Shown: positions 10,866-25,035 of the stretch, in pieces
How the letters are laid out: each line of letters opens with the position of its first letter
How positions within the stretch are numbered: position 1 is the stretch's first letter
Origin: Bacteroidia bacterium
Lineage (GTDB): Bacteria; Bacteroidota; Bacteroidia; UKL13-3
NCBI GenBank assembly: GCA_041675505.1
Contig: JBAYTR010000010.1
Coordinates: 67,895-131,894 of the forward strand
DNA: 64,000 nt
Direction of reading: 5' to 3'
The notes under the pieces: model-generated
Told to the model about the DNA's origin: nothing
Databases searched by the model: none
The model's input: only the letters and a program-made list of their open reading frames with translations
Made by a program: the position numbers and the translations under genes

Positions 10866-12704
10866 ATGTGTGGAATTGTAGCTTACATAGGTAAGCAGGA
10901 AGCTTACCCTATTCTTATTAAAGGACTTAAACGCCTGGAGTACCGCGGTTATGATAGTGCCGGAGTAGCACTGCTTAATGACGGGATAACGGTATATAAA
11001 AAAGCAGGGAAGGTTTCTGACCTGGAGCAGTCCGTAGGTGGTCAGGACACTACCTCTCACGTGGGCATAGGCCACACACGCTGGGCCACACACGGAGAGC
11101 CTAACGACCGCAACGCACATCCGCACCTTTCTCAGGATGGTGACTTGGCCATTATTCACAACGGTATAATCGAGAATTATGCGCCCTTAAAAGAAGAACT
11201 CATTAAGCGTGGCCACACGTTTAAAAGTGATACCGATACGGAAGTACTGGTGCACCTGATAGAAGACGTAAAGAAAAAAATGGAGGTTTCTTTACAAGAA
11301 GCCGTTCGTATTGCGCTCTCTGAAGTAGTGGGTGCATACGCCATTGTGGTGTTGTCTAAAAACGACAACAACATGCTCATCGGGGCACGCAAAGGCAGCC
11401 CCATGGTGGTGGGTATTGGCAAAGACGGGGAATACTTTATCGCCTCCGATGCTTCACCCATTATTGAGTACACTAAAAACGTTTATTACTTAGACGACAA
11501 CGAAATCGTTTACATCGAAAACGGGGAAATGACCGTAAAAACGATTGACAACGTGGTGCGCACACCATACATCCAGGAACTGGAAATGAACTTGGAGGCT
11601 TTGGAAAAAGGCGGATACGAGCACTTTATGCTCAAAGAAATTTACGAACAACCCCGTTCCATCATTGACAACTTTCGCGGACGCATTCGTTTAAACAACG
11701 CACAAATTGTGATGGCCGGAGTTGACCAGTTTGAACACAAGTTTAAAAACCTGCCCCGCATTCTTATTGTGGGTTGCGGCACCTCATGGCATGCCGGCCT
11801 GGTGGGTGAATACCTTTTTGAAGAGTTTGCCCGCATACCTGTGGAAGTGGAATACGCCTCAGAGTTTCGTTACCGCAATCCGGTGGTAAATGAAAATGAT
11901 TTTGTAATTGCTATTTCACAATCAGGCGAAACCGCAGATACGTTAGCGGCCATTCAAATGGCCAAAGAAAAAGGAGCTACTATTTTCGGGGTATGTAATG
12001 TGGTGGGCTCATCTATTCCAAGGGCTACACATGCGGGAGCGTACACACATGCCGGTCCGGAGATTGGTGTGGCTTCTACCAAAGCCTTTACGGCTCAGGT
12101 AACCGTTTTAACACTGATGGCTTTAAGCATAGCACAAAAACGCGGTACCATTACCCAAAGCCGAATGCGCGATGTACTTACTGAGTTGGAATCCATTCCA
12201 TCTAAGATTGAAAAAGTTCTGCAACTGAATGACTACATCAAAACCATAGCTGAGCAATACAAGGATGCGCGCAACTTCCTTTACCTCGGTCGCGGATACA
12301 ATTTCCCGGTGGCTTTGGAAGGTGCGTTAAAACTGAAAGAAATCTCTTACATACATGCTGAGGGTTATCCTGCTGCTGAAATGAAGCACGGCCCTATTGC
12401 GCTGATAGATGAAGAAATGCCGGTGGTTGTAGTAGCTACCAAAGACAGCATTTATGAAAAAGTAATCAGCAATATACAGGAAGTAAAAGCGCGCAAAGGA
12501 AAAGTAATTGCCGTGGTAACAGAGGGTGATGATAAGGTAAAAGGCATGGCCGATTACGTAATTGAAATACCTGAAGTGGAAGAATCGCTGGCCCCGCTGG
12601 TTACTACCATTCCGTTGCAACTGCTTTCATACCACATTGCCGTAATGCGTGGCTGTAATGTTGATCAACCCCGTAACCTGGCCAAGTCGGTAACGGTGGA
12701 ATAA
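10866..12704 (+). CDS. glmS: glutamine--fructose-6-phosphate aminotransferase
   Basis: MCGIVAYIG N-terminal nucleophile, two SIS domains, C-terminal ...KSVTVE. 612 aa. Confidence 0.95.
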   Translation: MCGIVAYIGKQEAYPILIKGLKRLEYRGYDSAGVALLNDGITVYKKAGKVSDLEQSVGGQDTTSHVGIGHTRWATHGEPNDRNAHPHLSQDGDLAIIHNGIIENYAPLKEELIKRGHTFKSDTDTEVLVHLIEDVKKKMEVSLQEAVRIALSEVVGAYAIVVLSKNDNNMLIGARKGSPMVVGIGKDGEYFIASDASPIIEYTKNVYYLDDNEIVYIENGEMTVKTIDNVVRTPYIQELEMNLEALEKGGYEHFMLKEIYEQPRSIIDNFRGRIRLNNAQIVMAGVDQFEHKFKNLPRILIVGCGTSWHAGLVGEYLFEEFARIPVEVEYASEFRYRNPVVNENDFVIAISQSGETADTLAAIQMAKEKGATIFGVCNVVGSSIPRATHAGAYTHAGPEIGVASTKAFTAQVTVLTLMALSIAQKRGTITQSRMRDVLTELESIPSKIEKVLQLNDYIKTIAEQYKDARNFLYLGRGYNFPVALEGALKLKEISYIHAEGYPAAEMKHGPIALIDEEMPVVVVATKDSIYEKVISNIQEVKARKGKVIAVVTEGDDKVKGMADYVIEIPEVEESLAPLVTTIPLQLLSYHIAVMRGCNVDQPRNLAKSVTVE

Positions 12705-12739
12705 GGTTGGTACCGTTGTGTTTTAAACGGACTACGAAA

Positions 12740-12764
12740 CAGCAGCTACAGTTGTTTAACCAAC
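12740..12764. repeat. 25-bp direct repeat, copy 1 (CAGCAGCTAcaGTTGTTTAACCAAC)
   Basis: Matches 13199-13223 at 23 of 25 positions. Copy 1 is intergenic, downstream of glmS. Confidence 0.6.
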
Positions 12765-12905
12765 TTTTATGTGAATACTCTGTAAACGTCTTTCCTGTGA
12801 GTAATCACAATCAGCCTTATGGTATTGGATGAAATTTTTCAAATATAGTCTTGTCCTTAACATTATTTAAAGACCTTTCAAATGATTTATCAAATTCGAC
12901 AATCA

Positions 12906-13100
12906 TTAAGATTTTAATTTTTTGAGGATGGTGGATTTAGGAACAGTTTTTCCGGTCTTAACTTTATCCATTAAGGTTCCCATCATCAAATCCTCAAATT
13001 GCTCATCCTTTACACTCAGAACATCCGCCCCAAGTTTTTTGGCAAGTTCAGACAGGATTTTATTGCTCTGTTTGTCGGCCCTTATAAGAATTGCACTCAT
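12906..13100 (-). CDS. small hypothetical protein (64 aa) inside the segment bracketed by the 25-bp direct repeats
   Basis: The only ORF in a 500-bp gap. Charged, Lys-rich, no TM segment. No recognised family. Confidence 0.3.
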   Translation of the reverse strand: MSAILIRADKQSNKILSELAKKLGADVLSVKDEQFEDLMMGTLMDKVKTGKTVPKSTILKKLKS

Positions 13101-13198
13101 GATGTAAAGATATTAAAAATGATTATCAGCGAAAGACTTCAAACATTGTTAGCTAACGGTAGAGGAGAAAAACTCATCCATACTTTTTATTTCCGCTC

Positions 13199-13223
13199 CA
13201 GCAGCTAAGGTTGTTTAACCAAC
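13199..13223. repeat. 25-bp direct repeat, copy 2 (CAGCAGCTAagGTTGTTTAACCAAC), spanning the stop codon and last codons of the yjbR-like gene
   Basis: See copy 1. The YjbR-like C-terminus ...ALVKQP-stop is encoded here on the minus strand. Confidence 0.6.
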
Positions 13224-13546
13224 GCAGCCAGTTGAGCAGGTGCCACTTCGCAATAAGCTGAGGTGAGTGCAGCTGTAAACAGACGCTTGCTTACCTTACT
13301 TAGTTCCACCATGGTCCACCCTTGTTTGCCCCACTTATTGTTTACAGGATACACGATGCTTTTGTCAGCCAGTGAAAACAGGTCCTGATTTATTTCAGAT
13401 AATTTAAGGCAGGCCCTGTTGTTTTTTTCGTCACAGGTGGCAAATATTTTTCCCTTTACCCGAAAGGAAATTTTTTCAAAGTGGGCCGCTTCTGTAGCCT
13501 CAGGAAAAGAAAGTGCAATAGTTCGGAAGGCTGCTAAACTCACCAC
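13205..13546 (-). CDS. MmcQ/YjbR family DNA-binding protein
   Basis: 113 aa; ...FPEATEAAHFEKISFRVKGKIFATC... is typical of the YjbR/MmcQ fold family. Confidence 0.65.
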   Translation of the reverse strand: MVSLAAFRTIALSFPEATEAAHFEKISFRVKGKIFATCDEKNNRACLKLSEINQDLFSLADKSIVYPVNNKWGKQGWTMVELSKVSKRLFTAALTSAYCEVAPAQLAALVKQP

Positions 13547-13568
13547 GTGAGCAATGGTTCAGTGTGCA

Positions 13569-14180
13569 TTAAAAATTACCGTACGAGAGGAAGAACGAAC
13601 CGTTGGTAACTGTTTTCGACTGGGTACCTGTTTCGTTGTACAACTTACATGTGAAGGTGCCTTTTACATCCACATAGGTATCGCCAAAGATGCTGAACTG
13701 CTGTGTGCTGGTAATGTTAAACGTTGCCCCGCTTTGTGTACCGTTAATGCTGCTCCACACCTGTCCGGTGGCATCTACATGCAAAATTTCTACACCATCG
13801 GTAGTAGGGGTGGAATACATGTAATTTCCGGGAGCAAAATAGGCTACAAAATCAGCATCATCAGGGTAGGCACCCTGAAAGCTCATTTCACCCTTGTATA
13901 TGCTCACACCTCCTACGGTATTGTCAGAAAAAATATTGGAATAATAGTAAGCGGTAGAAAACTCAGGCAACGGGCGGGTTTCTTTACTGGAGCCGGCTGC
14001 TTGTTCAAAACCGTTTTTTCCGTCAGTGTAGGTGAGGGAACTGCCATCTACGGTAAGGGCAACATTATATCGGTTGGGAGTAGGAGTTGGGGTGGGTGTA
14101 ACGTTGTTATCATCATCGTCTTTTTTACAACCGGTAAACGCCAAAGCCAAAAGAGCTGCAGCAAAGAATAAATTTTTCAT
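13569..14180 (-). CDS. hypothetical lipoprotein
   Basis: MKNLFFAAALLALAFTGCKK lipobox followed by a TPTPTPTP linker. No recognised family. Confidence 0.6.
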   Translation of the reverse strand: MKNLFFAAALLALAFTGCKKDDDDNNVTPTPTPTPNRYNVALTVDGSSLTYTDGKNGFEQAAGSSKETRPLPEFSTAYYYSNIFSDNTVGGVSIYKGEMSFQGAYPDDADFVAYFAPGNYMYSTPTTDGVEILHVDATGQVWSSINGTQSGATFNITSTQQFSIFGDTYVDVKGTFTCKLYNETGTQSKTVTNGSFFLSYGNF

Positions 14181-14367
14181 ACGTATTAAAATTTAGGTAA
14201 GACAAAAATATACTTTTTGGGATAAAAACCACAGGGAAGTGCAAGTTTTTTGAGGGAGCTGTTGTGTTGCCTTTCTGTTTGATAATTTGAAAGAGACCTT
14301 GTGGTTGCTGTTTGCTGAGCGTTTATTTAGGTAGGGTATTATTTTAGCTATAAGCTACATAAAAGAA

Positions 14368-14390
14368 AAGCGTAGGCGCAACCTACGCTT
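14368..14390 (-). terminator. rho-independent terminator ending the AT-rich minus-strand operon
   Basis: AAGCGTAGG-cgcaa-CCTACGCTT stem-loop. On the minus strand it is followed by TTTTCTTTTAT. It sits 70 bp downstream of the permease stop. Confidence 0.55.
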
Positions 14391-14459
14391 AGGTTGACCT
14401 CCCATAATTCATACATGTGGCATAATGCTTTATTCAAATCATTATTTGCAAGCTGCTTT

Positions 14460-15242
14460 TTATTTCCATTTCAGAAGTGTCTTTTCAAAAAGATAAATGA
14501 TTCTCGAAAACAAAAGAGCCAAAAGAATTATGCAGATTACAGCAGCCAAAACCAACGAAACATCATAAGTTCCACCAGCTTTAAAAACCCTATGTCCCAA
14601 ACCTTCGTGGGCTGAAATAAATTCGGCAATGAAGGCACCAAGTAAAGCAAAACTAATGTTCAGTTTAAGCGAATTAAAAAGCCAAACCAATGAAGAAGGC
14701 ACGATTAGTTTTGAAAATATCTGCGTCCGTGATGCTCCAAAGGAGTGAAACAGTTTTATTTGTTGAACATCAACTTGTCTTGCACCTTCATAGGATTGAG
14801 TGATTGCAATTACTACTGTTGAAAGTGCAGCCATTATAACCTTTGCATACATACCAGTTCCAAACCACATTATCATCATAGGTGCAATGGAAAAAATTGG
14901 AATTGCTCCAATTGCAATGATGTAAGGTCTTGTCAAGTCAGCAACTCGTTTTGAATACCAAAGGGAAAGTCCGATTGCTGCACCGCAAATGTTGCCAATT
15001 AGAAAACCATAAATCGCTTCCTGTCCTGTAATAAAAATGTCCCTTGGTAAAATACCATTGGAGATGTTTTCAATCAGCGAATGAAAAACTTTGGATGGAG
15101 AAGAAAACAAAAAGAGTTTCTTTTCAGTAGTTGAAATTACAAACTGCCATAACAGCAAGAAAACTGTTAATGGCAACAAACCCAAAATGATACTTATGAT
15201 TTTTCTTTTCATTGTTCGTCTTGCTTTGGAAGTGATTGCCAC
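14460..15242 (-). CDS. ABC transporter permease, NitT/TauT (SsuC/TauC-like) family
   Basis: 260 aa, 6 predicted TM helices, EAA-like loop region. Overlaps the upstream ATPase gene by 34 nt. Confidence 0.8.
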   Translation of the reverse strand: MAITSKARRTMKRKIISIILGLLPLTVFLLLWQFVISTTEKKLFLFSSPSKVFHSLIENISNGILPRDIFITGQEAIYGFLIGNICGAAIGLSLWYSKRVADLTRPYIIAIGAIPIFSIAPMMIMWFGTGMYAKVIMAALSTVVIAITQSYEGARQVDVQQIKLFHSFGASRTQIFSKLIVPSSLVWLFNSLKLNISFALLGAFIAEFISAHEGLGHRVFKAGGTYDVSLVLAAVICIILLALLFSRIIYLFEKTLLKWK

Positions 15243-15970
15243 ATTTCAGTAAAGTATTTAGAAAACTTTTGGTCTTGCTTAACTGAAATTGGACTTCTCT
15301 TTTCTACATCAAAAGTTATCTGTAATTCCTTGAATGTTTCGTTTGGCTTGTGATTAAAAATTATTGTCCTATCGCTTACTGTTATTGCTTCATCAATGTC
15401 GTGAGTAATCAGTAAAACAGTTTTGTGATTCTCTTTTGACAAAGCATGTATTTGTGCTTGTAGTTCAAGCCTCGTGTTGTAATCAATTGCTGAAAATGGT
15501 TCGTCCAAAAGCATTATTTCAGAATCTAACATCAGTGTTCTGATAAGAGCAACTTTTTGTCTTTCACCGCCTGAAAGTTGTGAGGGATAACTATGAACCA
15601 AATTTGAGATGCCAAAGCGTTTCAAATACTGCATTACATTTTCTTTTGTTGAGGAATTTATTTTGCCTTGAATTTCAATACCGACAATTATGTTTTGATA
15701 AACTGTTTTCCAAGGGAGCAATAAATCCTTTTGCATCATGTATGCTATTGCAGTTCTCCTGTCTGCAATGTGGTCAAGTTTTACTTCTCCGCTATATTCA
15801 TTGTCAAGTCCGATTATCAAGTTGAAAAGAGTTGTTTTCCCACAACCATTTGGCCCCAAAATGGAAACAAACTCCCCTGAACGAATAGTGAGATTGAGGT
15901 TTTTAAAAACCTCAACGTTACCCGTTGGAGTGCTAAATGACTTGGTTATGTTTTTTAACTCAATGTTCAT
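15209..15970 (-). CDS. ABC transporter ATP-binding protein (NitT/TauT family)
   Basis: Walker A GPNGCGKTT, signature LSGGERQK, Walker B LLDEPFSALD-like. Confidence 0.85.
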   Translation of the reverse strand: MNIELKNITKSFSTPTGNVEVFKNLNLTIRSGEFVSILGPNGCGKTTLFNLIIGLDNEYSGEVKLDHIADRRTAIAYMMQKDLLLPWKTVYQNIIVGIEIQGKINSSTKENVMQYLKRFGISNLVHSYPSQLSGGERQKVALIRTLMLDSEIMLLDEPFSAIDYNTRLELQAQIHALSKENHKTVLLITHDIDEAITVSDRTIIFNHKPNETFKELQITFDVEKRSPISVKQDQKFSKYFTEMWQSLPKQDEQ

Positions 15971-17514
15971 TAGTGCTTGACAATTTCCTTTTGTGCATTT
16001 GTAACTCTTGATTTTGCAAATGTCGCTTTAGAATAAATTTGATTAAATATTTTATAGCAATATGTTTCTTCTTTATCTCTCAAGGAAAATTGAGAATTGT
16101 TTTTTTGAATGTTTTGATATTCTTCTTCACTCAAATTGTTGTTTGCAAATTCATGTAGCAAACCCTTTCCTCTTTCAACGCCTCCAATTCCAGCCCCTTC
16201 CATCAAAGTCATTTTCTCTCTCGAATAAATGTAGTCAGGCAATAAATCTTTAAATGCTTCTCTCAAAACAAACTTTGTTGTTGTATCTCCTGTTTTTGTC
16301 TTTGCCACTTTTAAAGACGGATGAATGCTCAAAGCATATTCAACTAAAGTTCTGTCAAGAAAGGGTTCACGAACTTCAACGGCATATTTCATTCCTGTTT
16401 TGTCAACTCTCAAAAGTTGTGTCCTGTATAAATCGTTTAGAAGATTTTTAATTTCATTTTGAAATTCTGTTTCATCAGGAAGGGAAAGAAAATCACCATA
16501 GCCGCCAAATATTTCATCGCTGCCCTCGCCACACAAAACAATTTTGAAACCTTTGTCGTGTGCTAACTCTGCCAATTTCATTGAAAGTAAAGAGCCACGA
16601 ATAGGATTTGGTTCAAATGTCTCAATGGAATAAATCACATCAGGAACATTTTGAAGCAAATTTTCTTTGCTTGTTTTAATATGATGAAACTTCAAATTCA
16701 AATCATTGCAAAGTCGCTTTGCATAAATCACGTCTTCGCCTGAATCTTCACCGACAATTAAAGCTGTAACATCATTGTGATAACTGCAACACAATAAATG
16801 AACTATTGAACTGTCAATGCCACCACTTAAAAAAGTAGCAATAGGCAAATCTGTTTCAACTCTTTTCTTTACAGCCAATTCAACAAGTTCACGAACATTA
16901 TTTGTAATTGTGCTTACTGAATCAGTATTCCATTTTGTGCTTGGCGTTTTATAATACTGGAAAACTCCTTCATTGGTTATGTAGTGTGCTGGTTTAAGTT
17001 CTTCAAATGTTTCTACTTCCAAATCAGTAAAGGATTTCATTTCAGAAGAAATATAAACTACATTCTCACTCTTGCAGTAGAAGAATGGTTTCACTCCAAA
17101 AAAATCTCTTGCTCCGAAAAACTTATTTTGAACGGAATCATAAATTAGAAATGCAAACATTCCTTCTAACTGCTGCAAGAAATTTATTCCGTGTTCTTCA
17201 TAAAGATGAACCAAAACTTCTGTGTCGCAATCTGAAATAAACTTGTGTCCTTTCATTTGCAATTCTGATTTCAAATTTTTGTAGTTGTAAATCTCACCGT
17301 TAAAAACAACTCCTATTGTTTTGTTCTCATTGAAAAAAGGTTGTGTGCCATTTGGTCTGTCAACTATTTTAAGGCGAACACTTCCTAAGATTGAATTTCC
17401 TATTTGAACTTGTTTAGGTGCAGTATCTCCCCGATGCTCAATTTTTTTGAGCATAAACTCCATTTCTGTTTTGCCTTTTGGAGTAGGATTAATAATTGCT
17501 GCGATACCACACAT
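15970..17514 (-). CDS. asparagine synthase (glutamine-hydrolysing) family amidotransferase
   Basis: MCGIAAI Ntn-Cys, PP-loop SGGIDSS, 514 aa. One-nt overlap with the ABC ATPase start. Confidence 0.8.
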   Translation of the reverse strand: MCGIAAIINPTPKGKTEMEFMLKKIEHRGDTAPKQVQIGNSILGSVRLKIVDRPNGTQPFFNENKTIGVVFNGEIYNYKNLKSELQMKGHKFISDCDTEVLVHLYEEHGINFLQQLEGMFAFLIYDSVQNKFFGARDFFGVKPFFYCKSENVVYISSEMKSFTDLEVETFEELKPAHYITNEGVFQYYKTPSTKWNTDSVSTITNNVRELVELAVKKRVETDLPIATFLSGGIDSSIVHLLCCSYHNDVTALIVGEDSGEDVIYAKRLCNDLNLKFHHIKTSKENLLQNVPDVIYSIETFEPNPIRGSLLSMKLAELAHDKGFKIVLCGEGSDEIFGGYGDFLSLPDETEFQNEIKNLLNDLYRTQLLRVDKTGMKYAVEVREPFLDRTLVEYALSIHPSLKVAKTKTGDTTTKFVLREAFKDLLPDYIYSREKMTLMEGAGIGGVERGKGLLHEFANNNLSEEEYQNIQKNNSQFSLRDKEETYCYKIFNQIYSKATFAKSRVTNAQKEIVKH

Positions 17515-17518
17515 TTTA

Positions 17519-18322
17519 TTATTTTTGTTCTTCTTTATTAAAATTTGAAAACCAAGGTCTGCTTCTTATTCCTTTACGAAAAGAGTAAATCTGTAAACTC
17601 GGAAGGTCGGGGGCAATCAATTCTTTTTCTTCATCCGATGTGTATGTGAGAAAAACATTTTGAAAAAAATTCTTTTCTACATACTGCTTTTCAATTTGAT
17701 TCATTGTAATGTAAGCATATGCCGATTCATCAGTTGAATTAAAACGCAAGTCGCCAAAAATTTGATTGTTTGAATATCTGTAAGAATGTTTACCTGCTGA
17801 TTTTTTTAAAAGTTCAAATGATTCTCTACCTTTTAAAAACTCTGGTATGTTATGACTTCCATTCTCATTTATAATTGCATTGATTAATGCATTCATGTCT
17901 TTTAAGTGATGTGATTTTGCAAAAGGCATTAGCACTTCGGACATGAGAACATGTGTGTAATTGAATTCATTTACAACGTTTCTTATCCCTTTGAAATAGC
18001 TTTTGTAATCTTCGGGCTTATAGCCATTAAGCATTGCATGTGTGTCAGTAAAAATTAATGTTAGCTGAGCATCCAATTTGTAATGCTTTTCAATAACTCG
18101 CAGAAAACCGAAAAGATTTAGCAACGCATCAAAGTCGTATTTGTCGGGGTACTTTTTATCGGATGCGCCCCAATATGAAATGAAACGAATATATTTCTTG
18201 TTATGCTTTACTCTTTCATTAACATACTTATCTAACTCCGCAATTTGTTTCTTGCGAACCTCAATCTTTTTTGCTGCTAAAAAAGAGCCGATTGTTTTTC
18301 CGTTTCGCAAATTGCTATTCAT
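17519..18322 (-). CDS. hypothetical 267-aa protein, enzyme-like, no family recognised
   Basis: AT-rich ORF inside the coupled operon. Motifs ISYWGASDKK and LTLIFTDTHAML loosely resemble the catalytic-core motifs of tRNA-dependent cyclodipeptide synthases, but key CDPS residues do not align, so it is left unassigned. Confidence 0.55.
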   Translation of the reverse strand: MNSNLRNGKTIGSFLAAKKIEVRKKQIAELDKYVNERVKHNKKYIRFISYWGASDKKYPDKYDFDALLNLFGFLRVIEKHYKLDAQLTLIFTDTHAMLNGYKPEDYKSYFKGIRNVVNEFNYTHVLMSEVLMPFAKSHHLKDMNALINAIINENGSHNIPEFLKGRESFELLKKSAGKHSYRYSNNQIFGDLRFNSTDESAYAYITMNQIEKQYVEKNFFQNVFLTYTSDEEKELIAPDLPSLQIYSFRKGIRSRPWFSNFNKEEQK

Positions 18323-20189
18323 TGCGATAAAAATATTTGCTTTCGTGTTTTAGTTTAAACAATTCCCGTGAAGACAAAAAAACAATAACTAAACAAATTA
18401 AGAAACAATAAAAAATATAATTGCCATATTTAATTGTATGTAAAACTTCTTTGTATTCTATAGGGTCGCTATTCGGAACAACTTCTTGCCTTGCAAATTC
18501 ATGTTTCAATTCATCTAATTTTGGAGTTTTAGGATGTAAAATGTGAAACATACTTGATGTAATCTCAAGTAAAATAAATAACGAGCCTATAAAGTAAAGT
18601 AACGTGGGTTTTCTTACATGCTTCCATAATGAACTTTCTATAAACAGTCGAAAGTTTTCAACTTTATTAGTGAACAGTTTTAAGAGATATAAAAAGGGCA
18701 ACAATGGTGTTAAAAATATTCGCCAACCTGCCCACTTTTTTGTGTGTAACGTTTTTCTTTCAAGTTCAAAATAATGCTTTTCATTTTGACGATATTCAGC
18801 TAACAAATCATCAGCTACGAACAAACTGTAATCAATAGTTTGAGGAACAGGTATGCCCTCAGCCCTATATCGCAAAAGCGTTAATTCTTTCAAATCATCT
18901 TTAATCGGATTAGTTTTTGAGTAATACAAATTGCCAATATCTCTCCACTCTCTTAATCTATCTACATAGTATTTAAGAATTTCTTCAAGTGAAAATTTCT
19001 CTTTTTTATTATTGATAAGAAACTGGATATAACTTTTAATAGTTTCATCTGCGATTAAGAGGTTAAGCAATTCGTCTTGGGTATCATCATCATATTTGAG
19101 TTTTGTTTTCAGAAAGTGAATTAAGCCCGTTGTATCGCTTTTCTTTAGATACGAATGAATTCTGTGTAAATTTTTATCAATGCCGTAGAGCAACCCTTTA
19201 AGTTTTTCTGAATTTTCAGGTGCATTATTACCTAAGATGCCCGTAAACATGAAACTTTGATCGTTGTCATACGCTAAGTTTTCTAATTCAATAATTTTTT
19301 TGTTTGCTTCTCCATTATGCTTATCAAGTAAGAAATCAATACTTATAAAATCACATGAGAATGAGACAGAATTATTGCAATAGTCATCGTTATCTACTTC
19401 TTCGTCAATGGTTCCATTATTTTTATATGTTTTTTTACTTACTTTACGAAGTTCATATCCAAAATCTTTTCTTTCTTCTACCAATGTAGATGTAGATGTT
19501 TTGTATTGCTCATAATAGATATGACCAATACAAAATCCTGTTGAAGGAGTATCATAACAGATGATTGATTGAGTAATATTTTCTTTTCCGTATTGAGACG
19601 GAAAATTTTGTGGATTCTTATATAATCTACCTAAGTCATTAGACGAACTAGTTAAATCTCCACTTCCTACAGCCAGAAAAGCAATTTTTGAAACTAATCC
19701 ACCAATAACCTTTGTATTGGTTTTTAATATTTTCTCTTTAAAGAGGTTTACCCCATTCTCTTTAAAGACTAAATTGTTACTATTGTCAACATCTAAACAT
19801 TGTGAAAGATTGAGATTAAACTCTTTATTACAAATATCTTTCTTTGTTTTAATGTCAAGCAAGTCCTGAAACTTTTTAAGTTCTGCTTGTAGCTTGGTGG
19901 CATCGCAATGGTTCAAATAGATAAGATGAGATGGGTCGCAAATGGCTGCGTCTGCTAAACCAAGCAAAACGGAAAAGGTTGCAAATCCATCACCCTTTAA
20001 TTTCTTGCTCTGGTCAAACCTGAAATCATTTTTTGTTCCAATTATAACTACTTCTAATTCCGAAAATGGTGTGTCATGGAAATCATTGCCATAGTATGCA
20101 ACATAAAATGGAAGGTATAATACCGTGTCAGTTGATACGGCAATTTCAAGTTTGTCTTTTGTTCGTATGGAAGAAAATCCTGAATCCAT
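18315..20189 (-). CDS. NMT1/THI5/SsuA-like substrate-binding domain (N-terminal, no signal peptide) fused to a C-terminal region with about 3 TM helices
   Basis: N-terminal ...LYLPFYVAYYGN...GFATFSVLLGLADAAICDPSHL... parallels the ...YLPFYIAQEKGFF...AQFGIGDPVFTAISREKG region of the adjacent canonical SBP. C-terminal hydrophobic segments WAGWRIFLTPLLPFLYLL, LLYFIGSLFILLEI and IFYCFLICLVIVFL. Confidence 0.6.
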   Translation of the reverse strand: MDSGFSSIRTKDKLEIAVSTDTVLYLPFYVAYYGNDFHDTPFSELEVVIIGTKNDFRFDQSKKLKGDGFATFSVLLGLADAAICDPSHLIYLNHCDATKLQAELKKFQDLLDIKTKKDICNKEFNLNLSQCLDVDNSNNLVFKENGVNLFKEKILKTNTKVIGGLVSKIAFLAVGSGDLTSSSNDLGRLYKNPQNFPSQYGKENITQSIICYDTPSTGFCIGHIYYEQYKTSTSTLVEERKDFGYELRKVSKKTYKNNGTIDEEVDNDDYCNNSVSFSCDFISIDFLLDKHNGEANKKIIELENLAYDNDQSFMFTGILGNNAPENSEKLKGLLYGIDKNLHRIHSYLKKSDTTGLIHFLKTKLKYDDDTQDELLNLLIADETIKSYIQFLINNKKEKFSLEEILKYYVDRLREWRDIGNLYYSKTNPIKDDLKELTLLRYRAEGIPVPQTIDYSLFVADDLLAEYRQNEKHYFELERKTLHTKKWAGWRIFLTPLLPFLYLLKLFTNKVENFRLFIESSLWKHVRKPTLLYFIGSLFILLEITSSMFHILHPKTPKLDELKHEFARQEVVPNSDPIEYKEVLHTIKYGNYIFYCFLICLVIVFLSSRELFKLKHESKYFYRNE

Positions 20190-20191
20190 AT

Positions 20192-21205
20192 TTAATTTGT
20201 CTTGGTATCTGAAATAGATTTTTCGGCAAAGGAATTATCTACTGCATCTGATGTTGGTTTCATTTCCTTCATGTCGCCTATATCAACTCTTACTTGTATC
20301 GCTTTCTGCCAAGCTTCATCACTCATTACAGCATGGTCTGGAATTGTTTTATCTGCTACCATTCTTTTTACAGCATTTGCAACAACTGCTTTGTCAAGGT
20401 TGGGGAAAAGTTTTGCTGCAATTTCTGCCGTTCCTGCTTCATCTGTGTGGCAATACTGTAATGCCTTTTCAATTGCGTTTACAAATTTTTGAACAGTTTC
20501 CTTATTGGCGTTTATGTATTCCTCTGTCGTTGTTAAGCCAGTGAAAGCAAATCTTCCATAAAACTGCGGTGAGGAGTAAACAACTTTGTAACCTTTACTT
20601 TCAGCTATTGATGTTCCTGGTTCTAAGTCCATCGCAATATCGGCACTTCCATTTTCAAGTAAAGCCAACTGTGAACCAATTGGGGCTTGAACAATGATTG
20701 TGTTTTTTAATAAATCTCCTCCTTTCATGAGTGTCTTTTTCATCAAAGCGTAATTTGTTGACGGGTCGGGGAATGTTCCAACTTTCAAACCAGCCAAATC
20801 ACCAGGCTGTTCTATGGTTTTGATGTTATCCTTGTTTGTTACACCCCAAATTGTTACTCCGTCAACGATGGAACCAATTACTTTTCCTTTTGCTCCTTTC
20901 TCTCGTGATATGGCAGTGAATACAGGGTCGCCAATTCCAAATTGTGCTTCGCCTTTCAAAACGGTTGCAAAAACCTGGTCGTCATTACCTGAAAACTTTA
21001 CAGTAATTTCAAGTCCTTCGTCTTTGAAAAAACCCTTCTCCTGTGCAATGTAGAAAGGTAGGTAAATTAGATACTTCTCTTGTCCCCACTGCGCTACTAT
21101 TACTTTGGTGACTTCGGTGGTTTTTGGCTTTTCAGTGTTGCATGAATTGCATCCTCCCAAAATGATTGTGAGAACCAGTAATGCTGCTAAAACTATTTTA
21201 TTCAT
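20192..21205 (-). CDS. ABC transporter substrate-binding lipoprotein, NMT1/THI5-like (SsuA/TauA family)
   Basis: Lipobox LTIILGGC followed by an SBP fold with NMT1-like motifs. Confidence 0.8.
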   Translation of the reverse strand: MNKIVLAALLVLTIILGGCNSCNTEKPKTTEVTKVIVAQWGQEKYLIYLPFYIAQEKGFFKDEGLEITVKFSGNDDQVFATVLKGEAQFGIGDPVFTAISREKGAKGKVIGSIVDGVTIWGVTNKDNIKTIEQPGDLAGLKVGTFPDPSTNYALMKKTLMKGGDLLKNTIIVQAPIGSQLALLENGSADIAMDLEPGTSIAESKGYKVVYSSPQFYGRFAFTGLTTTEEYINANKETVQKFVNAIEKALQYCHTDEAGTAEIAAKLFPNLDKAVVANAVKRMVADKTIPDHAVMSDEAWQKAIQVRVDIGDMKEMKPTSDAVDNSFAEKSISDTKTN

Positions 21206-21261
21206 TTTGACGGTTTTAATTGCTATTTTATATTGTAAAGATAGTTATTCACTCGATAAAT

Positions 21262-22788
21262 TCAACAATTGCTTCCCTTCTCAAAAAGTGTTTTCCAAAG
21301 GAATGTATCAAACAATTGTGCTAAGTTGTAAGTCAAAAACAAAAATAAAGTTCCTCCCAATAGTATTGCCAAAAACCATTTCCAAAGGTTGCTGTAAATT
21401 TTGAGTTTGCCATCAATGAATGCTACATCAGCATTGAATTCTTTATCATTATTAAGGATTCTCTGAATGTCTTCTTTTTCTAAAAGGTCAGTGTAGCGTT
21501 CTTTCAAATTTGTGTAGCTGTCAACGAATCTTTTGCGTTGCTCTTTCACTTCCCACTTTGCTACTAAGTAATAAAGGAATGAGCCGAACAAAAAAACAAT
21601 TGAAAGAACTGCTGTGTCAAGTGTAAACACATTTACAAAATCTCCATTGCCCAAAACTTTTATTGCGATTGCAGAAAAGTAAAAAGTGATTAGCGCCAAA
21701 GAACTTTTTTGAAAACCACTTGCAAATGTTTCAATGACTTTGTTTGCTCTGTTGTTGAAGTCAAGCAACTGGTCAGAAATTTTATTTCTGATTTCAATGT
21801 ATTGCTTGATGTTCTGCTTCTCGTAAACTTTGTAACTTGATTGAATAGATTGAAATGGATGCCCTTTCAATTCTAATTCACCACTATTTTCAAAGTGAAG
21901 TGAAATAATGTTTCTGGCTAAACCAATTTTATCATTGAGGTTTCCGCCACAATAAACCCAATTGTATATATTGAAATATTCTTTCGTTCCATCTATCGGC
22001 AATGCTTTTACATCAACTTTTCCTTTGATTGATTTATAACCGTTGATTTTAAATTCAAGTTCGTTGGCTTTTAGCGAAGTAATGTCAAACAAATAAACAA
22101 CGGAAAGCACAACAGCATAATGATTGAAAAGCAAACACAGCTTGCTGTGTTTTGCATTTTCAATTTGCAACTGAAAATCATCAGGCGTTAAGTTGTGTTC
22201 TTCAATGTTGGTGTAATTACTTGCTGAAAGAATGCTATCAAGGCGTTTATGCCTGTCAGCAAATGTTTGAGTAGGTGTGGTAGCACCTATTTGTGTAAAG
22301 AAAATATTTGCTGTATTGAATGGCTTGTCAAGATTCAACACTTTGAAGTTTACAAAAGGTGTGTTTGATAAAACACGATTGAAAACCGCATACGCTTCTG
22401 CTACTGACAAACTTTCAAGTGTTGCTGTGAAGATTTCTAAATCATATATAGAAATATTGTTTGAAATATTTCCTTTAGTGATTTTGAAGGTTGCTGTGAT
22501 TGGTTCGCCTTCCTGATGCAAATATTCCTTATCAAGTTCAGTTTTGAAATCGGTAAAATTTGAACTGGTTGAATAAAATGATTTTGGGTCGGCTTCTCCA
22601 AATTTGATTGTGAATGTTAATTGGTCGTTAGGCTCTAAAAAGTTGTAGGCGGTTTGAATGCTTGCAACCTCTGTCGATGAAAAGTTTGTTGCTGACAATT
22701 CACAAATAAATTCTTTGTCATTCTCTGAAACAGTTGTTTGAGAATAAGTAGAGAAAAAAGAGTGAATGAATTTATCAGCAAATTGCAT
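21262..22788 (-). CDS. hypothetical membrane-anchored protein: about 350-aa soluble N-terminal domain plus about 3 C-terminal TM helices
   Basis: 508 aa. TM segments LALITFYFSAIAIKVL, AVLSIVFLFGSFLYYLVA and WKWFLAILLGGTLFLFLTY. One-nt overlap with the upstream gene. Confidence 0.5.
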   Translation of the reverse strand: MQFADKFIHSFFSTYSQTTVSENDKEFICELSATNFSSTEVASIQTAYNFLEPNDQLTFTIKFGEADPKSFYSTSSNFTDFKTELDKEYLHQEGEPITATFKITKGNISNNISIYDLEIFTATLESLSVAEAYAVFNRVLSNTPFVNFKVLNLDKPFNTANIFFTQIGATTPTQTFADRHKRLDSILSASNYTNIEEHNLTPDDFQLQIENAKHSKLCLLFNHYAVVLSVVYLFDITSLKANELEFKINGYKSIKGKVDVKALPIDGTKEYFNIYNWVYCGGNLNDKIGLARNIISLHFENSGELELKGHPFQSIQSSYKVYEKQNIKQYIEIRNKISDQLLDFNNRANKVIETFASGFQKSSLALITFYFSAIAIKVLGNGDFVNVFTLDTAVLSIVFLFGSFLYYLVAKWEVKEQRKRFVDSYTNLKERYTDLLEKEDIQRILNNDKEFNADVAFIDGKLKIYSNLWKWFLAILLGGTLFLFLTYNLAQLFDTFLWKTLFEKGSNC

Positions 22789-23825
22789 TAGCTATTGCCG
22801 TTTTGTCTGTTGCTGAAATATTGATAGCCTTGTTCCGATTTGATTTTCACATATCTTGTTCCGTCTGCATCTTTTTCCGCTGTGATTATTGTTTCAAGGT
22901 TCGGAATATCTTCTTTCAAGTGCAAATCAATTTGGCTTGTCAAGGGGATAGTGTTTAGAAATTTTGCCCTAATCTTTGCCTTTACAATCGTGAACTGTTC
23001 GTCAAAAGGTGTTCTTGGTTTTGATGGCAATTGTCGGATTTGAGTTTTGATTTCTGCAACATCAAGGTTGGAATCGAAGGGAGTGTAGTTTCCAATTGCT
23101 GTGTCCAAATACTCTTGCATGTCAAAATTGTCGTTGGCTCTGAAATAGCGAACGGTGCTATTACGCAAATGCAAATAATCTTGTGGGTGTTTCTTTTTCA
23201 GTTTTGTAAATATGCCTTTGTCAATTGCTTCAAAAGCATTTTCTGTATTGTCCTCGTCTGAATAAACTTTGGTGAGTTCTAAAAAATCTTTCCACCAATA
23301 ATGAGAAAGGTTTGGATTGGTGTCATACACCAAAACATTAGTTACAGTTTGGTCGCTGTTTAGCGAACAAACAAATGCTTTGAAAACCTTTTTCTTTAAT
23401 GGAAGTCCTCTTGAAATAGTAAAATTTATTTCGTTTAAGAAATCGCTGTGGTCTGCTTTACAGATTACAAGTTTGTTGACGCTGTTTTCTGTTACCAATG
23501 CTTGAACAACAATTCCCTTTTGAATCTCAACTCCAAGTTTCAACATTTTTGCTTGTGCCTCTTGCTCTTTCTTCAAAAGTCGTGTTACTATTGTTGATGC
23601 AATTGCAGGAAATTCTTCACCTGCAATAATTTTCGTAATCTGTCCTCTTACTTCTGTTGTGTCGCTGTCAAACTTGAAGTTTCTACCACTGCTGCCTGTC
23701 GTAATGAGATTTACCAGTCCTTGCAAGTATGTGTTGAAGTCAGCACCATAAATTGATTGCTCAATTGATTCAACCGCTTGTTCATGAATGTCAACCTTAA
23801 ATATTTGTATGGCTGTTATGTCCAT
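22788..23825 (-). CDS. hypothetical soluble protein, first gene of the AT-rich operon
   Basis: The ORF-track start at 23891 adds 22 residues. The Met at 23825 (MDITAIQIFKV...) has an AT-rich upstream region typical of Bacteroidota starts. Faint resemblance to NA37/YejK-type nucleoid-associated proteins; unverified. Confidence 0.5.
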   Translation of the reverse strand: MDITAIQIFKVDIHEQAVESIEQSIYGADFNTYLQGLVNLITTGSSGRNFKFDSDTTEVRGQITKIIAGEEFPAIASTIVTRLLKKEQEAQAKMLKLGVEIQKGIVVQALVTENSVNKLVICKADHSDFLNEINFTISRGLPLKKKVFKAFVCSLNSDQTVTNVLVYDTNPNLSHYWWKDFLELTKVYSDEDNTENAFEAIDKGIFTKLKKKHPQDYLHLRNSTVRYFRANDNFDMQEYLDTAIGNYTPFDSNLDVAEIKTQIRQLPSKPRTPFDEQFTIVKAKIRAKFLNTIPLTSQIDLHLKEDIPNLETIITAEKDADGTRYVKIKSEQGYQYFSNRQNGNS

Positions 23826-24304
23826 GTTGTATATTTTAAAATGTGAAAAATTGTTGGTTAACGGGTGCTGATAAAGCGTTGGCGATTGCACACTTTTGAT
23901 TTCGCCTTTGGGTTGGCTTGTACGTGAGCTGCAAATGCAAATGTGTACTGGTGTTTTTTGTTTTCCAGCTGAAGCGTTTACAATTCAAGGAGGTGTCGTT
24001 GGTGTCAAGTTTTGTCAAAAAGTTCATTTTTCATCTGTCAGTTTAATGTTAACACTGTTGCCATAGGGTTTCCGGCAGCTTTTTTATATGCGAAGGTTTG
24101 CCTGGTTTTGTAAATATATCAATTTGCTCATAACTCTTCAAAAAGGGGGTTGTTTTTTGAATACTTTGTGATGTAAATCGCTTTGAAAATCTTGGCCAAT
24201 TAGGCCACGGGAATTTGCAAGACAGGTGAACAGGTTAGGTTGCATAGCATATTGGTTTTCAACGGCAAATTAGAAGGTTTTTTATTACTGTGCAAATTTA
24301 TTAT

Positions 24305-24327
24305 TGTGCTCGCATTGGGAGACTGCT
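24305..24327. repeat. direct repeat TTGTGCTCGCATTGGGAGACTGC, 5' end of tandem element copy 1 (about 24305-24410, ends in a T-run)
   Basis: Matches 24514-24536 at 21 of 23 positions. Both units end ...GACGTT(T)CTTTTTTGA about 100 nt later. Confidence 0.5.
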
Positions 24328-24513
24328 TCTCCCGATAGCCATCGGGTCTCGGTGGCATTGCTTTTTGGGGTGCCGCGCTAGGCTCAATAAGACGTTTCTT
24401 TTTTGAAGAGAGATAGACTTTAAGCACATCGTCTTTGCGATGAACTTCTGGGTAGTGTGTTGGGTAGTCAAGAAGCAAACTTTAGTTCAGGGAAGCAACC
24501 TCCTATTACAACT

Positions 24514-24536
24514 TTGTGCTCACATTGGGGGACTGC
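24514..24536. repeat. direct repeat TTGTGCTCACATTGGGGGACTGC, 5' end of tandem element copy 2 (about 24514-24612)
   Basis: See above. Confidence 0.5.
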
Positions 24537-24627
24537 CACGGGCTCTCATCACACAGGCTAAGCTTCGCCCTCGCAGTGACGTTGGTTTTGACAGTGACGT
24601 TCTTTTTTGAGTGCCTTTGAAGTAATG

Positions 24628-25035
24628 TTACTTCATCTCCTGGCACAACTCAATCAGTACTCCGTTGGTGGCTTTGGGGTGCAGGAAACAAATGAGTTTA
24701 TTATCAGCACCGCGCTTGGGTGTTTCATGGATAAATTGAAATCCGGCTGCTTCTAAACGGGTTATTTCTGCTTCAATGTCTTCTACATCAAATGCAATGT
24801 GGTGTATGCCCTCGCCTTTTTTCTCAATAAATTTTGCAATGGCACTGTCGGCTGAGGTGGCTTGCAGCAACTCTACTTTGCTTTCTCCGGTTTTAAAAAA
24901 AGCGGTGATTACGTGTTCGCTTTCCACGCCCTCTTCTTTGTAGCAGGGTGTTCCCAAAAGTGCGGCAAACAGGCTTTTGGATGCTTCTATATCTTTAACG
25001 GCTATGCCCAGGTGTTCAATCTTGCGTAAATTCAT
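24628..25035 (-). CDS. methylmalonyl-CoA epimerase (VOC/glyoxalase fold)
   Basis: Sequence from the internal Met: MNLRKIEHLGIAVKDIEASK...GEGIHHIAFDVEDIEA... The N-terminal 12 residues of the track ORF are probably not translated. Confidence 0.75.
   Translation of the reverse strand: MNLRKIEHLGIAVKDIEASKSLFAALLGTPCYKEEGVESEHVITAFFKTGESKVELLQATSADSAIAKFIEKKGEGIHHIAFDVEDIEAEITRLEAAGFQFIHETPKRGADNKLICFLHPKATNGVLIELCQEMK

What the first reader, a model, noticed from the sequence alone, without database searches (positions are those of the whole stretch)
23892..24627. 736-bp non-coding region with two tandem paralogous elements of about 100 bp, each ending in a T-run (candidate sRNA pair or regulatory repeats)
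TTGTGCTCGCATTGGGAGACTGC (24305) and TTGTGCTCACATTGGGGGACTGC (24514) are 21/23 identical and 209 bp apart. About 100 bp after each, the sequence converges again on GACGTT(T)CTTTTTTGA(A)G. Copy 1 contains adjacent perfect hairpins (GGGAGActgctTCTCCC and CCCGATagccATCGGG). The interior is otherwise diverged, the pattern expected for duplicated small RNA genes keeping their 5' ends and terminators. It could also be paired protein-binding sites. The region separates the island operon promoter from the convergent mce gene. It also carries an SfiI-like GGCCAATTAGGCC palindrome at about 24196.
Basis: seen in the sequence. Interest (0 to 1): 0.55.

Follow-up and report, generated by a model that had tools for sequence, protein, structure and literature searches.

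The report
Worn copies of a palindromic repeat
The two look-alike stretches are worn copies of a hairpin-forming repeat that is scattered through intergenic DNA of Bacteroidota and that, in other genomes, surrounds a tiny GIY-YIG nuclease gene; they are not a locus-specific pair of small-RNA genes.

Summary
The 23-mer is not a 5' end. It is the 3' half of the apical loop plus the 3' strand of the inner stem of a palindromic unit of about 105 nt or more: CGTCAYYGCGAG..GAAGCAATCTCC-loop(TGTGCTC)-TTGGGAGACTGC..CTCGCAGTGACG-TTTCTTTTTTGA. Window 24427-24612 is one complete but insertion-laden unit. Window 24304-24368 is a right-half unit, and 24390-24408 is a terminal scrap.

The same family occurs in 53 metagenome contigs and in a Bacteroidia MAG, singly or in tandem arrays, next to unrelated housekeeping genes. 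The only recurrent neighbour is a 97-99-aa GIY-YIG nuclease. All four independently sampled homologues of that nuclease are flanked on both sides by unit arrays; Algoriphagus sp. NG3 has about 25 units with a 126-128 bp period.

Rfam has no model for the unit, and I found no paper. The window has no GIY-YIG gene and no other copy in 64 kb. A strain with 96% identical mce carries a single, differently built unit at the same spot.

Verdict: these are decaying members of a REPIN-like interspersed repeat, probably inert here or at most a terminator or insulator. The locus is ordinary. The link between the repeat family and the nuclease may be undescribed.

The parts
24427..24612 (+). Unit 2: a complete palindromic repeat unit, swollen by insertions. 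It starts 17 nt from the mce stop codon.
   Evidence: A profile built without the window hits 24487-24589 at E = 4e-10. The seed profile gives E = 1.8e-5. It aligns with 19 family units and keeps 9/10 outer-stem and 8/10 inner-stem pairs.
24430..24442 (+). Unit 2, 5' strand of the outer stem (CGTCTTTGCGATG; family consensus GTCATTGCGAG).
24492..24503 (+). Unit 2, 5' strand of the inner stem (GAAGCAACCTCC; consensus GAAGCAATCTCC).
24514..24536 (+). It is the 3' half of the apical loop (TTGTGCTCACA) plus the 3' strand of the inner stem (TTGGGGGACTGC).
24569..24581 (+). Unit 2, 3' strand of the outer stem (CCTCGCAGTGACG). It is followed by a local 16-nt duplication (24574-24589 and 24592-24607) and the T-run at 24603-24608.
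   Evidence: (D4).
24304..24368 (+). Unit 1: a right-half unit of a variant type (loop 3' part + GGGAGACTGC + TTCTCCCGAT-hairpin + degenerate outer strand and T-run). It has no left arm.
   Evidence: Against the L002 unit it scores 63 versus 19.9 +/- 3.9 in shuffles, 0 of 500 as high. Against the L058 terminal unit it scores 40, 1 of 500 as high. No left arm was detected upstream (all). The profile hit at 24312-24332 has E = 0.012.
24390..24408 (+). Isolated terminal scrap AGACGTTTCTTTTTTGAAG: the end of the outer stem plus the T-run of a unit.
   Evidence: (D2).
24132..24166 (.). A-run/T-run palindrome TTCAAAAA-GGGGGTTG-TTTTTTGAA. It may be a relic of the outer flanks of a unit, or a small bidirectional terminator. 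Unresolved.
   Evidence: D2, D3, I5.
23826..24075 (-). Upstream (promoter and leader) segment that travels with the 345-aa/508-aa gene pair. It is not part of the repeat.
   Evidence: The window as a whole shares 89% identity with L009 over 24075-21291, ending exactly at 24075.
24628..25035 (-). mce (methylmalonyl-CoA epimerase, 135 aa). Its stop codon abuts unit 2.
22788..23825 (-). First gene of the downstream operon (345 aa, NA37-like nucleoid-associated protein).

Best explanation
The two elements are what remains of a short array of an interspersed, hairpin-forming (palindromic) DNA repeat family of Bacteroidota.

A canonical unit is two inverted arms: GTCAYYGCGAG-(optional small hairpin)-GAAGCAATCTCC, and its near-complement GGGAGACTGCTTC-(optional hairpin)-CTCGCAGTGAC. 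The arms surround a loop that carries TGTGCTC in this subfamily, and an A-rich stretch and a T-run flank the whole. The window holds one full unit (24427-24612), one right half (24304-24368) and at least one terminal scrap.

Shown:
- The window copies belong to the family.
- The family is dispersed and forms tandem arrays.
- It is tightly linked to a stand-alone 97-99-aa GIY-YIG nuclease gene.
- The window copies are degenerate.
- This spot differs between closely related strains.

Inferred:
- The units spread, or are maintained, through the GIY-YIG nuclease acting in trans on the conserved arms, much as REPINs depend on RAYT transposases.
- At this locus they are decaying passengers in a variable slot downstream of mce. 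They have no dedicated function beyond, at most, blocking read-through or antisense transcription.
For: - The 23-mer is non-random. Profiles built without the window hit 24487-24589 at E = 4e-10 and 24312-24332 at E = 0.012, and nothing else in 64 kb.
- The 21-sequence alignment places the 23-mer in the loop and inner 3' strand. Its consensus structure has an outer stem and an inner stem, and 93% of cells pair, against 29-59% when the partner columns are slid.
- Window unit 2 keeps 17 of 20 pairs.
- Its left arm matches the L075 left arm, 0 of 500 shuffles as high.
- Canonical units fold with z = -3.2 to -4.0 on either strand.
- A pattern from the right arm alone finds 53 metagenome contigs. 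Most also carry the left-arm GAAGCAATCYCC, which was not in the pattern.
- A Bacteroidia MAG has units on both sides of a GIY-YIG gene.
- Among 70 flanking ORFs, GIY-YIG is the top recurrent Pfam family (5). The rest are diverse housekeeping genes, with no Y1/RAYT or IS transposase among the 25 families listed of 78.
- Reverse test: four GIY-YIG homologues, chosen without knowledge of their flanks, all have units on both sides starting within roughly 10 to 100 nt of the gene. Algoriphagus sp. NG3 has about 25 units with a 126-128 bp period.
- Strain L002 (mce 96% identical, 90% DNA identity up to the stop codon) has one differently composed unit directly after mce.
- Relatives with 86% and 83% identical mce have other genes there and no unit.
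Against: - No GIY-YIG gene lies in the 64-kb window, and the rest of this genome was not available. An active partnership in this organism is therefore unproven.
- Only one locus was seen in the window, so dispersal within this genome is not shown.
- Mobility itself was not demonstrated. I found no insertion polymorphism with clean empty sites and no target-site duplication.
- The 21/23 identity of the two 23-mers, in otherwise diverged copies, could reflect selection on that segment (a binding site) rather than decay.
- The T-run on one strand is well kept in this subfamily, which would also fit a transcribed element.
Confidence: 0.75

Rival explanations
1. A pair of small RNA genes on the + strand. 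Each would start near the 23-mer and end at the T-run, antisense to and convergent with mce.
For: - In the window both 23-mers are preceded by a 7/8 match to the Bacteroidetes -7 box TAnnTTTG: TATTATTG and CAACTTTG (sequence; the consensus is from my own knowledge).
- A T-run follows on the same strand.
- Copy 1 folds at z = -2.2.
- One terminator-like site lies at 24338-24356 on the + strand.
Against: - The -7-like box is missing in the orthologous L002 copy (…AGCGATGGTGCTC) and in canonical units (…GAACGATTGTGCTC).
- The 23-mer is internal to a larger palindrome.
- Units in arrays are about 20 nt apart.
- Copy 2 folds worse than shuffles.
- There is no Rfam match.
- The stems are conserved in sequence with almost no covariation: 93.2% of cells paired against 92.3% in shuffles.
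- There is no clear strand preference: 358 cells paired on one strand against 340 on the other.
Confidence: 0.07
2. An exapted terminator or insulator. The hairpins with A/T-rich flanks stop transcription between mce and the downstream operon, or stop antisense transcription from entering mce.
For: - Units are hairpins flanked by an A-rich stretch and a T-run.
- Family members lie mostly between genes, antisense to both neighbours, as here: 25 to 10 on the downstream side and 21 to 12 on the upstream side.
- Unit 2 begins 17 nt after the mce stop.
Against: - In the mce sense, the closing strand of the outer stem is followed by AUGUGCUUAAAG, not a U-run (sequence).
- The scan finds no terminator-like site on the minus strand.
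- The window unit as a whole is not more stable than shuffles.
- Relatives do without it.
- This reading is compatible with the best explanation rather than an alternative origin.
Confidence: 0.2
3. att-like recombination sites that mark the border of an integrated island.
For: - The repeats sit at the mce-proximal edge of an 11.9-kb segment that is absent from relative L003.
- The slot downstream of mce is variable in other relatives.
Against: - No copy of the 23-mer or of the unit lies at the other border (12.7-14.5 kb) or anywhere else in the window.
- No integrase- or recombinase-sized ORF with such a domain was found among the segment genes tested; three of its ORFs were not scanned.
- Both copies lie on the same side of the segment, 210 bp apart.
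- The same repeat occurs next to unrelated housekeeping genes elsewhere.
Confidence: 0.04
4. A minus-strand leader or tandem riboswitch that controls the downstream NA37-like / ABC-transporter / Asn-synthase operon.
For: The upstream gap is long (802 nt), and the repeated elements lie between mce and the operon.
Against: - Only 23826-24075 is conserved with the same gene pair in L009. The repeats are not.
- The repeat is linked to mce in L002 and to unrelated genes elsewhere.
- There is no Rfam hit.
- Minus-strand folds are not better than shuffles.
Confidence: 0.03

Closest known systems
REP / REPIN elements with their RAYT (TnpA_REP, Y1/HUH) transposases, and BIME mosaics of enterobacteria and pseudomonads
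   Same: - Short intergenic palindromes built from two inverted arms, each with its own small hairpin, that together form a hairpin of about 100 nt.
- They occur singly, as mosaics or in tandem clusters, next to unrelated genes.
- A single-domain nuclease gene is itself flanked on both sides by the repeats.
- The arms show fixed left/right asymmetries (a T.G and an A.C position here).
   Different: - The associated gene is a 97-99-aa GIY-YIG nuclease (PF01541), not a Y1/HUH transposase. No RAYT was seen among the 25 Pfam families listed for the 70 neighbouring ORFs.
- The host phylum and the sequences are unrelated.
- Arrays can reach about 25 head-to-tail units.
- Mobility has not been shown.
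MITE-like bacterial repeats (Correia/NEMIS, ERIC, RUP, the Nezha elements of cyanobacteria, Rickettsia palindromic elements)
   Same: Non-autonomous elements of about 100-180 nt with terminal inverted repeats. They are dispersed in intergenic DNA, fold as long hairpins and can affect transcription of their neighbours.
   Different: - No target-site duplication or IS-derived terminal repeat was identified.
- No cognate IS transposase was found.
- They occur in tandem head-to-tail arrays.
- The partner is a GIY-YIG nuclease.
Free-standing GIY-YIG homing endonucleases (for example phage T4 Seg proteins and I-TevI-type enzymes)
   Same: A small GIY-YIG gene embedded in, and apparently spreading with, a specific DNA context.
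   Different: - These proteins are the catalytic domain only (about 98 aa), with no DNA-binding extension.
- They are chromosomal and sit inside repeat arrays, not in phage genes or introns.
- NCBIfam gives only sub-threshold similarity to the group I intron endonuclease model: 19 bits against a cut-off of 56.
Rho-independent (bidirectional) terminators
   Same: A GC-containing hairpin flanked by an A-rich stretch and a T-run.
   Different: The stem is about 105 nt with conserved sequence and a conserved loop. It is multi-copy, and the window copies lack a U-run on the strand of the flanking genes.

Membership tests
The palindromic repeat family defined here (outer stem GTCAYYGCGAG/CTCGCARTGAC, inner stem GAAGCAATCYCC/GGRGACTGCTTC) | Significant match to a profile built from units of other genomes | tested here: met
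   Window 24487-24589 gives E = 4e-10 and 24312-24332 gives E = 0.012, using a profile that excludes the window and L002.
The palindromic repeat family defined here | Both arms are present and able to pair (outer and inner stems) | tested here: met
   Unit 2 keeps 9/10 outer and 8/10 inner pairs. Unit 1 has only the right half.
The palindromic repeat family defined here | The unit as a whole forms a stable hairpin | tested here: not met
   Window unit 2 has z = +1.6, against -3.2 to -4.0 for canonical units. The window copy carries insertions of about 20 nt in the left arm and about 30 nt in the right arm.
REP/REPIN-RAYT system | Short intergenic palindromes, dispersed and clustered, multi-copy | tested here: met
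   53 metagenome contigs. Several contigs have 2-6 units at one or two places. Neighbouring genes are unrelated. Multi-copy status within the window's own genome was not testable.
REP/REPIN-RAYT system | An associated Y1/HUH (RAYT) transposase gene flanked by the repeats | tested here: not met
   No Y1_Tnp family appears among the 25 Pfam families listed for the 70 neighbouring ORFs. The flanked gene is GIY-YIG.
Small regulatory RNA gene | Own promoter conserved across homologues | tested here: not met
   There is no sigma-70-type site on the + strand in front of either copy. The Bacteroidetes -7-like box seen in the window is absent from L002 and from canonical units.
Small regulatory RNA gene | Structure supported by covariation, or a match to a curated RNA family | tested here: not met
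   Rfam gives nothing. Pairing is explained by conserved sequence: 93.2% observed against 92.3% in shuffles.
Small regulatory RNA gene | Discrete transcript | not testable with these tools
   No expression data were available.
Island att sites | Direct repeat at both borders of the inserted segment, plus a recombinase | tested here: not met
MITE | Terminal inverted repeats with a target-site duplication and an empty-site polymorphism | tested here: inconclusive
   Inverted arms are present. No target-site duplication was recognised. The only strain comparison (L002 against the window) shows a rearranged unit, not a clean empty site.
Intrinsic terminator of mce | Hairpin followed by a U-run on the mce (minus) strand | tested here: not met
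   No minus-strand site was found in the scan. The minus-strand sequence after the stem is not U-rich.

The most novel reading that the evidence does not exclude
The window elements are relics of a previously undescribed partnership that resembles REPIN-RAYT. In this reading, a stand-alone 97-99-aa GIY-YIG nuclease, a family with more than 5,900 cluster representatives, propagates or maintains a 105-128-nt palindromic repeat. That repeat forms long tandem arrays around the nuclease gene and seeds single copies through intergenic DNA of Bacteroidota, and apparently of other phyla seen in sediment metagenomes. This would be a second, mechanistically different (GIY-YIG rather than HUH) solution to the same selfish or domesticated repeat lifestyle.
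Probability: 0.35. Interest if true: 0.6.

Novelty: new variant of a known kind. Interest (0 to 1): 0.35.

Why it matters
For this locus the result is deflationary. It removes a candidate sRNA pair and explains the odd pattern of conserved ends and free interior as the arms and loop of a decaying palindromic repeat. It also corrects the gene orientation and the unit boundaries.

Beyond the locus there are three practical points:
- Such units create spurious ORFs (for example ...GDCFVPRSD in L021) and break assemblies. The L002 contig ends inside a unit.
- They mark a variable slot downstream of mce.
- The nuclease link found on the way gives a concrete, testable candidate for how interspersed palindromes spread in Bacteroidota, a phylum in which, to my knowledge, REP/RAYT biology has not been worked out.

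Tried and rejected
- **Rfam.** At gathering thresholds on the whole window and at E <= 10 on 23700-24800, the only result was a chance-level AaHKsRNA82 hit at 24140-24217. Full units from five loci also gave nothing.
- **tRNA or tmRNA fragments as att cores.** None in the window.
- **Coding potential.** The + strand ORF 24440-24610 spans copy 2, but copy 1 is in a different frame. The distances from 23-mer to TGA differ by 7 nt, and copy 1 has an in-frame stop in the frame of copy 2. Rejected.
- **Remnant of the sulfotransferase 3' end that abuts mce in relatives.** The C-termini do not match, and the window's apparent + strand ORF 13554-14171 is spurious; the real gene is a minus-strand lipoprotein.
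- **Integron attC-like sites.** The ends do not fit RYYYAAC/GTTRRRY (sequence inspection).
- **Third copy at the far border of the variable segment.** None.
- **Left arm upstream of copy 1.** Not detectable.
- **GIY-YIG gene in the window.** None by tblastn.
- **Viral contigs.** No match to the right-arm pattern.
- **Genome-collection scan with the 23-mer-derived pattern.** It gave 12 hits, and I estimate about 17 by chance. One is certainly real (L021). A second, L016 from a Rhodothermales MAG, gets weak profile hits.
- **Literature.** Seven full-text searches, by sequence words and by GIY-YIG combined with repeat, REP, MITE, REPIN or COG2827, found nothing relevant.
- **Covariance model.** Not built. 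The stems are conserved in sequence, so it would have added little over the profile searches.

Full report
**Context.** The window is part of a 196-kb metagenome contig (ENA ERZ27247358, k141_387550). The organism is a member of the Bacteroidota, judging from T9SS sorting domains and SusC-like TonB receptors. Both genes that bound the region lie on the minus strand. mce (methylmalonyl-CoA epimerase, 135 aa) occupies 24628-25035. Downstream of it lies an operon whose first gene is a 345-aa NA37-like protein starting at ATG 23825. The non-coding gap is therefore 23826-24627 (802 bp), and mce and the operon are co-directional, not convergent.

**The observation.** The 23-mer is real and non-random. 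It occurs at 24304-24326 and 24514-24536, is 21/23 identical, and the copies are 210 bp apart. No shuffle gave a match, and there is no third copy in 64 kb even with three mismatches. Each copy is followed some 90-100 nt later by GACGTT(T)CTTTTTTGA. The interiors do not align (score 14 against a shuffle mean of 20). Rfam finds nothing, either at gathering thresholds or at E <= 10, and there are no tRNA genes.

**Relatives at the same locus.**
- A strain with 96% identical mce (L002) is 90% identical in DNA up to the stop codon. It carries a single element directly after mce. That element has the 5' flank of copy 2 but the hairpins of copy 1, and the contig ends inside it.
- Relatives with 86% identical mce have a sulfotransferase gene overlapping the end of mce and no element. 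Relative to them, the window carries an 11.9-kb replacement at 12704-24636.
- Relatives with 83% identical mce have a CBASS-like island at this position.
- The 345-aa/508-aa gene pair occurs elsewhere in other contexts. Only 23826-24075 of its upstream region travels with it.

The repeats therefore belong neither to the gene pair nor to a conserved mce 3' region. They sit at a junction inside a variable slot.

**What the elements are.** I scanned the GTDB genome collection with a pattern derived from the 23-mer. It gave 12 hits, a number I estimate to be about what chance predicts. One hit, in a Bacteroidia MAG (L021), was clearly homologous well beyond the pattern: GTGCTCCACATTGGGAGACTGCTTCGTTCCTCGCAGTGACATTTTCTTTTTGA.

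In L021 this sequence is the right half of a 105-nt imperfect palindrome. Its left half is CGTCATCGCGAG-TCATGTACTCATGGCGTG-GCGATCTCC. Units lie on both sides of a 98-aa GIY-YIG gene (PF01541, E = 1e-15).

A right-arm pattern (TTGGGRGACTGC, then 5-35 nt, then CTCGCARTGAC) found 53 metagenome contigs and no viral contig. I estimate only a few hits by chance. The hits are real, because most also carry the left-arm GAAGCAATCYCC, which was not in the pattern. Several contigs show head-to-tail arrays (L073, L058, L075, L044).

The 21-unit alignment and its consensus structure define three features:
- an outer stem (GTCAYTGCGA / TCGCARTGAC);
- an inner stem (AGCAATCTCC / GGGAGACTGCT);
- variable small hairpins inside either arm.

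In addition, the apical loop contains TGTGCTC in the AT-rich Bacteroidota subfamily.

The T-run block is the end of the outer stem plus its trailing T-run.

**The window copies in that frame.**
- *Unit 2 is complete and spans about 24427-24612.* Its parts are a left outer strand at 24430-24442, a left inner strand at 24492-24503, a loop, the 23-mer, a right-arm insertion, and a right outer strand at 24569-24581. These are followed by a local 16-nt duplication and the T-run.
- *Evidence that unit 2 is a family member.* Its left arm matches the left arm of an L075 unit at score 60 against 17.5 +/- 3.4 in shuffles, with 0 of 500 as high. It keeps 17 of the 20 consensus pairs. A profile built without it gives E = 4e-10.
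- *Unit 2 is degenerate.* It carries large insertions and does not fold better than shuffles as a whole (z = +1.6). Canonical units give z = -3.2 to -4.0 on either strand.
- *Unit 1 (24304-24368) is a right half of a variant type.* It is GGGAGACTGC-TTCTCCCGAT plus a hairpin. The same variant occurs in L002 and as the last unit of arrays in L058 and L044. It has no left arm.
- *The segment 24390-24408 looks like a detached unit end.*
- *No other copy exists in the 64-kb window, and no GIY-YIG gene either*.

**Nature of the family.** I scanned the ORFs next to elements in 43 loci (70 ORFs). GIY-YIG is the top recurrent Pfam family (5 ORFs). A few ordinary families recur twice, and otherwise the neighbours are diverse housekeeping genes such as H+-PPase, chaperonins and LeuRS. 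No Y1/RAYT or IS transposase appears among the 25 families the tool listed, out of 78. Elements tend to lie antisense to both neighbours, as in the window (25 to 10 and 21 to 12).

The reverse test was striking. I picked four homologues of the small GIY-YIG protein from the protein search without knowledge of their flanks: two from MAG or metagenome lineages, one from Algoriphagus sp. NG3 and one from Pedobacter nototheniae. All four are flanked on both sides by units that start within roughly 10 to 100 nt of the gene. In Algoriphagus the gene sits in the middle of about 25 units with a 126-128 bp period.

Pairing in the stems is high: 93% of cells pair, against 29-59% when the partner columns are slid. 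It comes from sequence conservation, not covariation, because shuffles still pair at 92%. One flanking pair does switch between U-A and C-G in step with the subfamily. Two positions are fixed non-Watson-Crick differences between the arms (T.G at 35/199 and A.C at 98/136). There is no net strand preference (358 against 340 paired cells). This pattern fits arms that a protein recognises at the DNA level better than it fits a structured RNA, but it does not exclude an RNA.

**Interpretation.** The best-supported reading is that 24304-24612 is a decaying mini-array of an interspersed palindromic repeat. By anatomy and genomic behaviour it is REPIN-like. Its partner gene in other genomes is a stand-alone GIY-YIG nuclease rather than a RAYT transposase.

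That the nuclease mobilises or maintains the units is an inference from adjacency only. At this locus the copies are probably inert. A weak terminator or insulator effect is possible, but on the strand of the flanking genes there is no U-run after the stem and no terminator-like site.

The sRNA-pair, att-site and leader/riboswitch readings each fail specific tests, which are listed under the rival explanations and the membership test.

**Novelty.** The locus itself is ordinary: an intergenic repeat in a variable slot. The family has no Rfam model, and seven full-text searches found no description of it or of its link to GIY-YIG. The library searched is incomplete, so this is absence of evidence only. 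I therefore rate it a new variant of a known kind and give the finding as submitted a modest interest score.

Noticed in passing
window 12704-24636; L003 6400-7048; L006/L007 6429-12400: The position downstream of mce is a variable slot. The window has an 11.9-kb segment containing a YjbR-like gene, a lipoprotein and a 9.4-kb operon (NA37-like, 508-aa unknown, NMT1, 624-aa and 267-aa unknowns, Asn-synthase-like, ABC ATPase and permease). One relative has only a sulfotransferase gene there. Another has an HTH/M78 + SMODS + bacHORMA + AAA (CBASS-like) island.
   Followed up: partly
window 21262-23825 (minus); L009, L010-L013, L014: The 345-aa NA37-like gene and the 508-aa gene with no Pfam match form a portable two-gene module. 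It is found with different downstream genes and next to NB-ARC or DUF6602 genes in other contigs. L014 has a second 344-aa paralogue nearby. This may be a defence- or mobile-element-associated cassette.
   Followed up: partly
L096 1-3300 (Algoriphagus sp. NG3, CP139421.1:2292993-2296292); L097; L080-L095: Small (97-99 aa) GIY-YIG nuclease genes are embedded in tandem arrays of the palindromic unit, with a period of 126-128 bp and up to about 25 units in 3.3 kb. No description was found in the searchable literature.
   Followed up: partly
window 24132-24166: TTCAAAAA-GGGGGTTG-TTTTTTGAA: an A-run/T-run palindrome that resembles the outer flanks of a repeat unit without its core. It could be a relic, an excision-like footprint or a small bidirectional terminator.
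   Followed up: no
L036 1533-1572 (minus) and 3162-3201 (plus): Two identical units in inverted orientation, with identical 25-nt flanks, bracket a 1.6-kb segment. That segment encodes a 388-aa ORF with no Pfam match and looks like a composite element.
   Followed up: partly
L021 1683-1901; L044; L073 2515-2733: In three related contigs the unit arrays lie just upstream of the same small S4-domain (PF13275) gene. The number of units differs between contigs, which shows array expansion and contraction at one orthologous site.
   Followed up: no
window 13554-14171 (+) and 13569-14180 (-): Two near-coextensive ORFs lie on opposite strands. The + strand one has an implausible composition. The minus-strand one begins like a lipoprotein signal (MKNLFFAAALLALAFTGC...) and is the likely gene.
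   Followed up: partly
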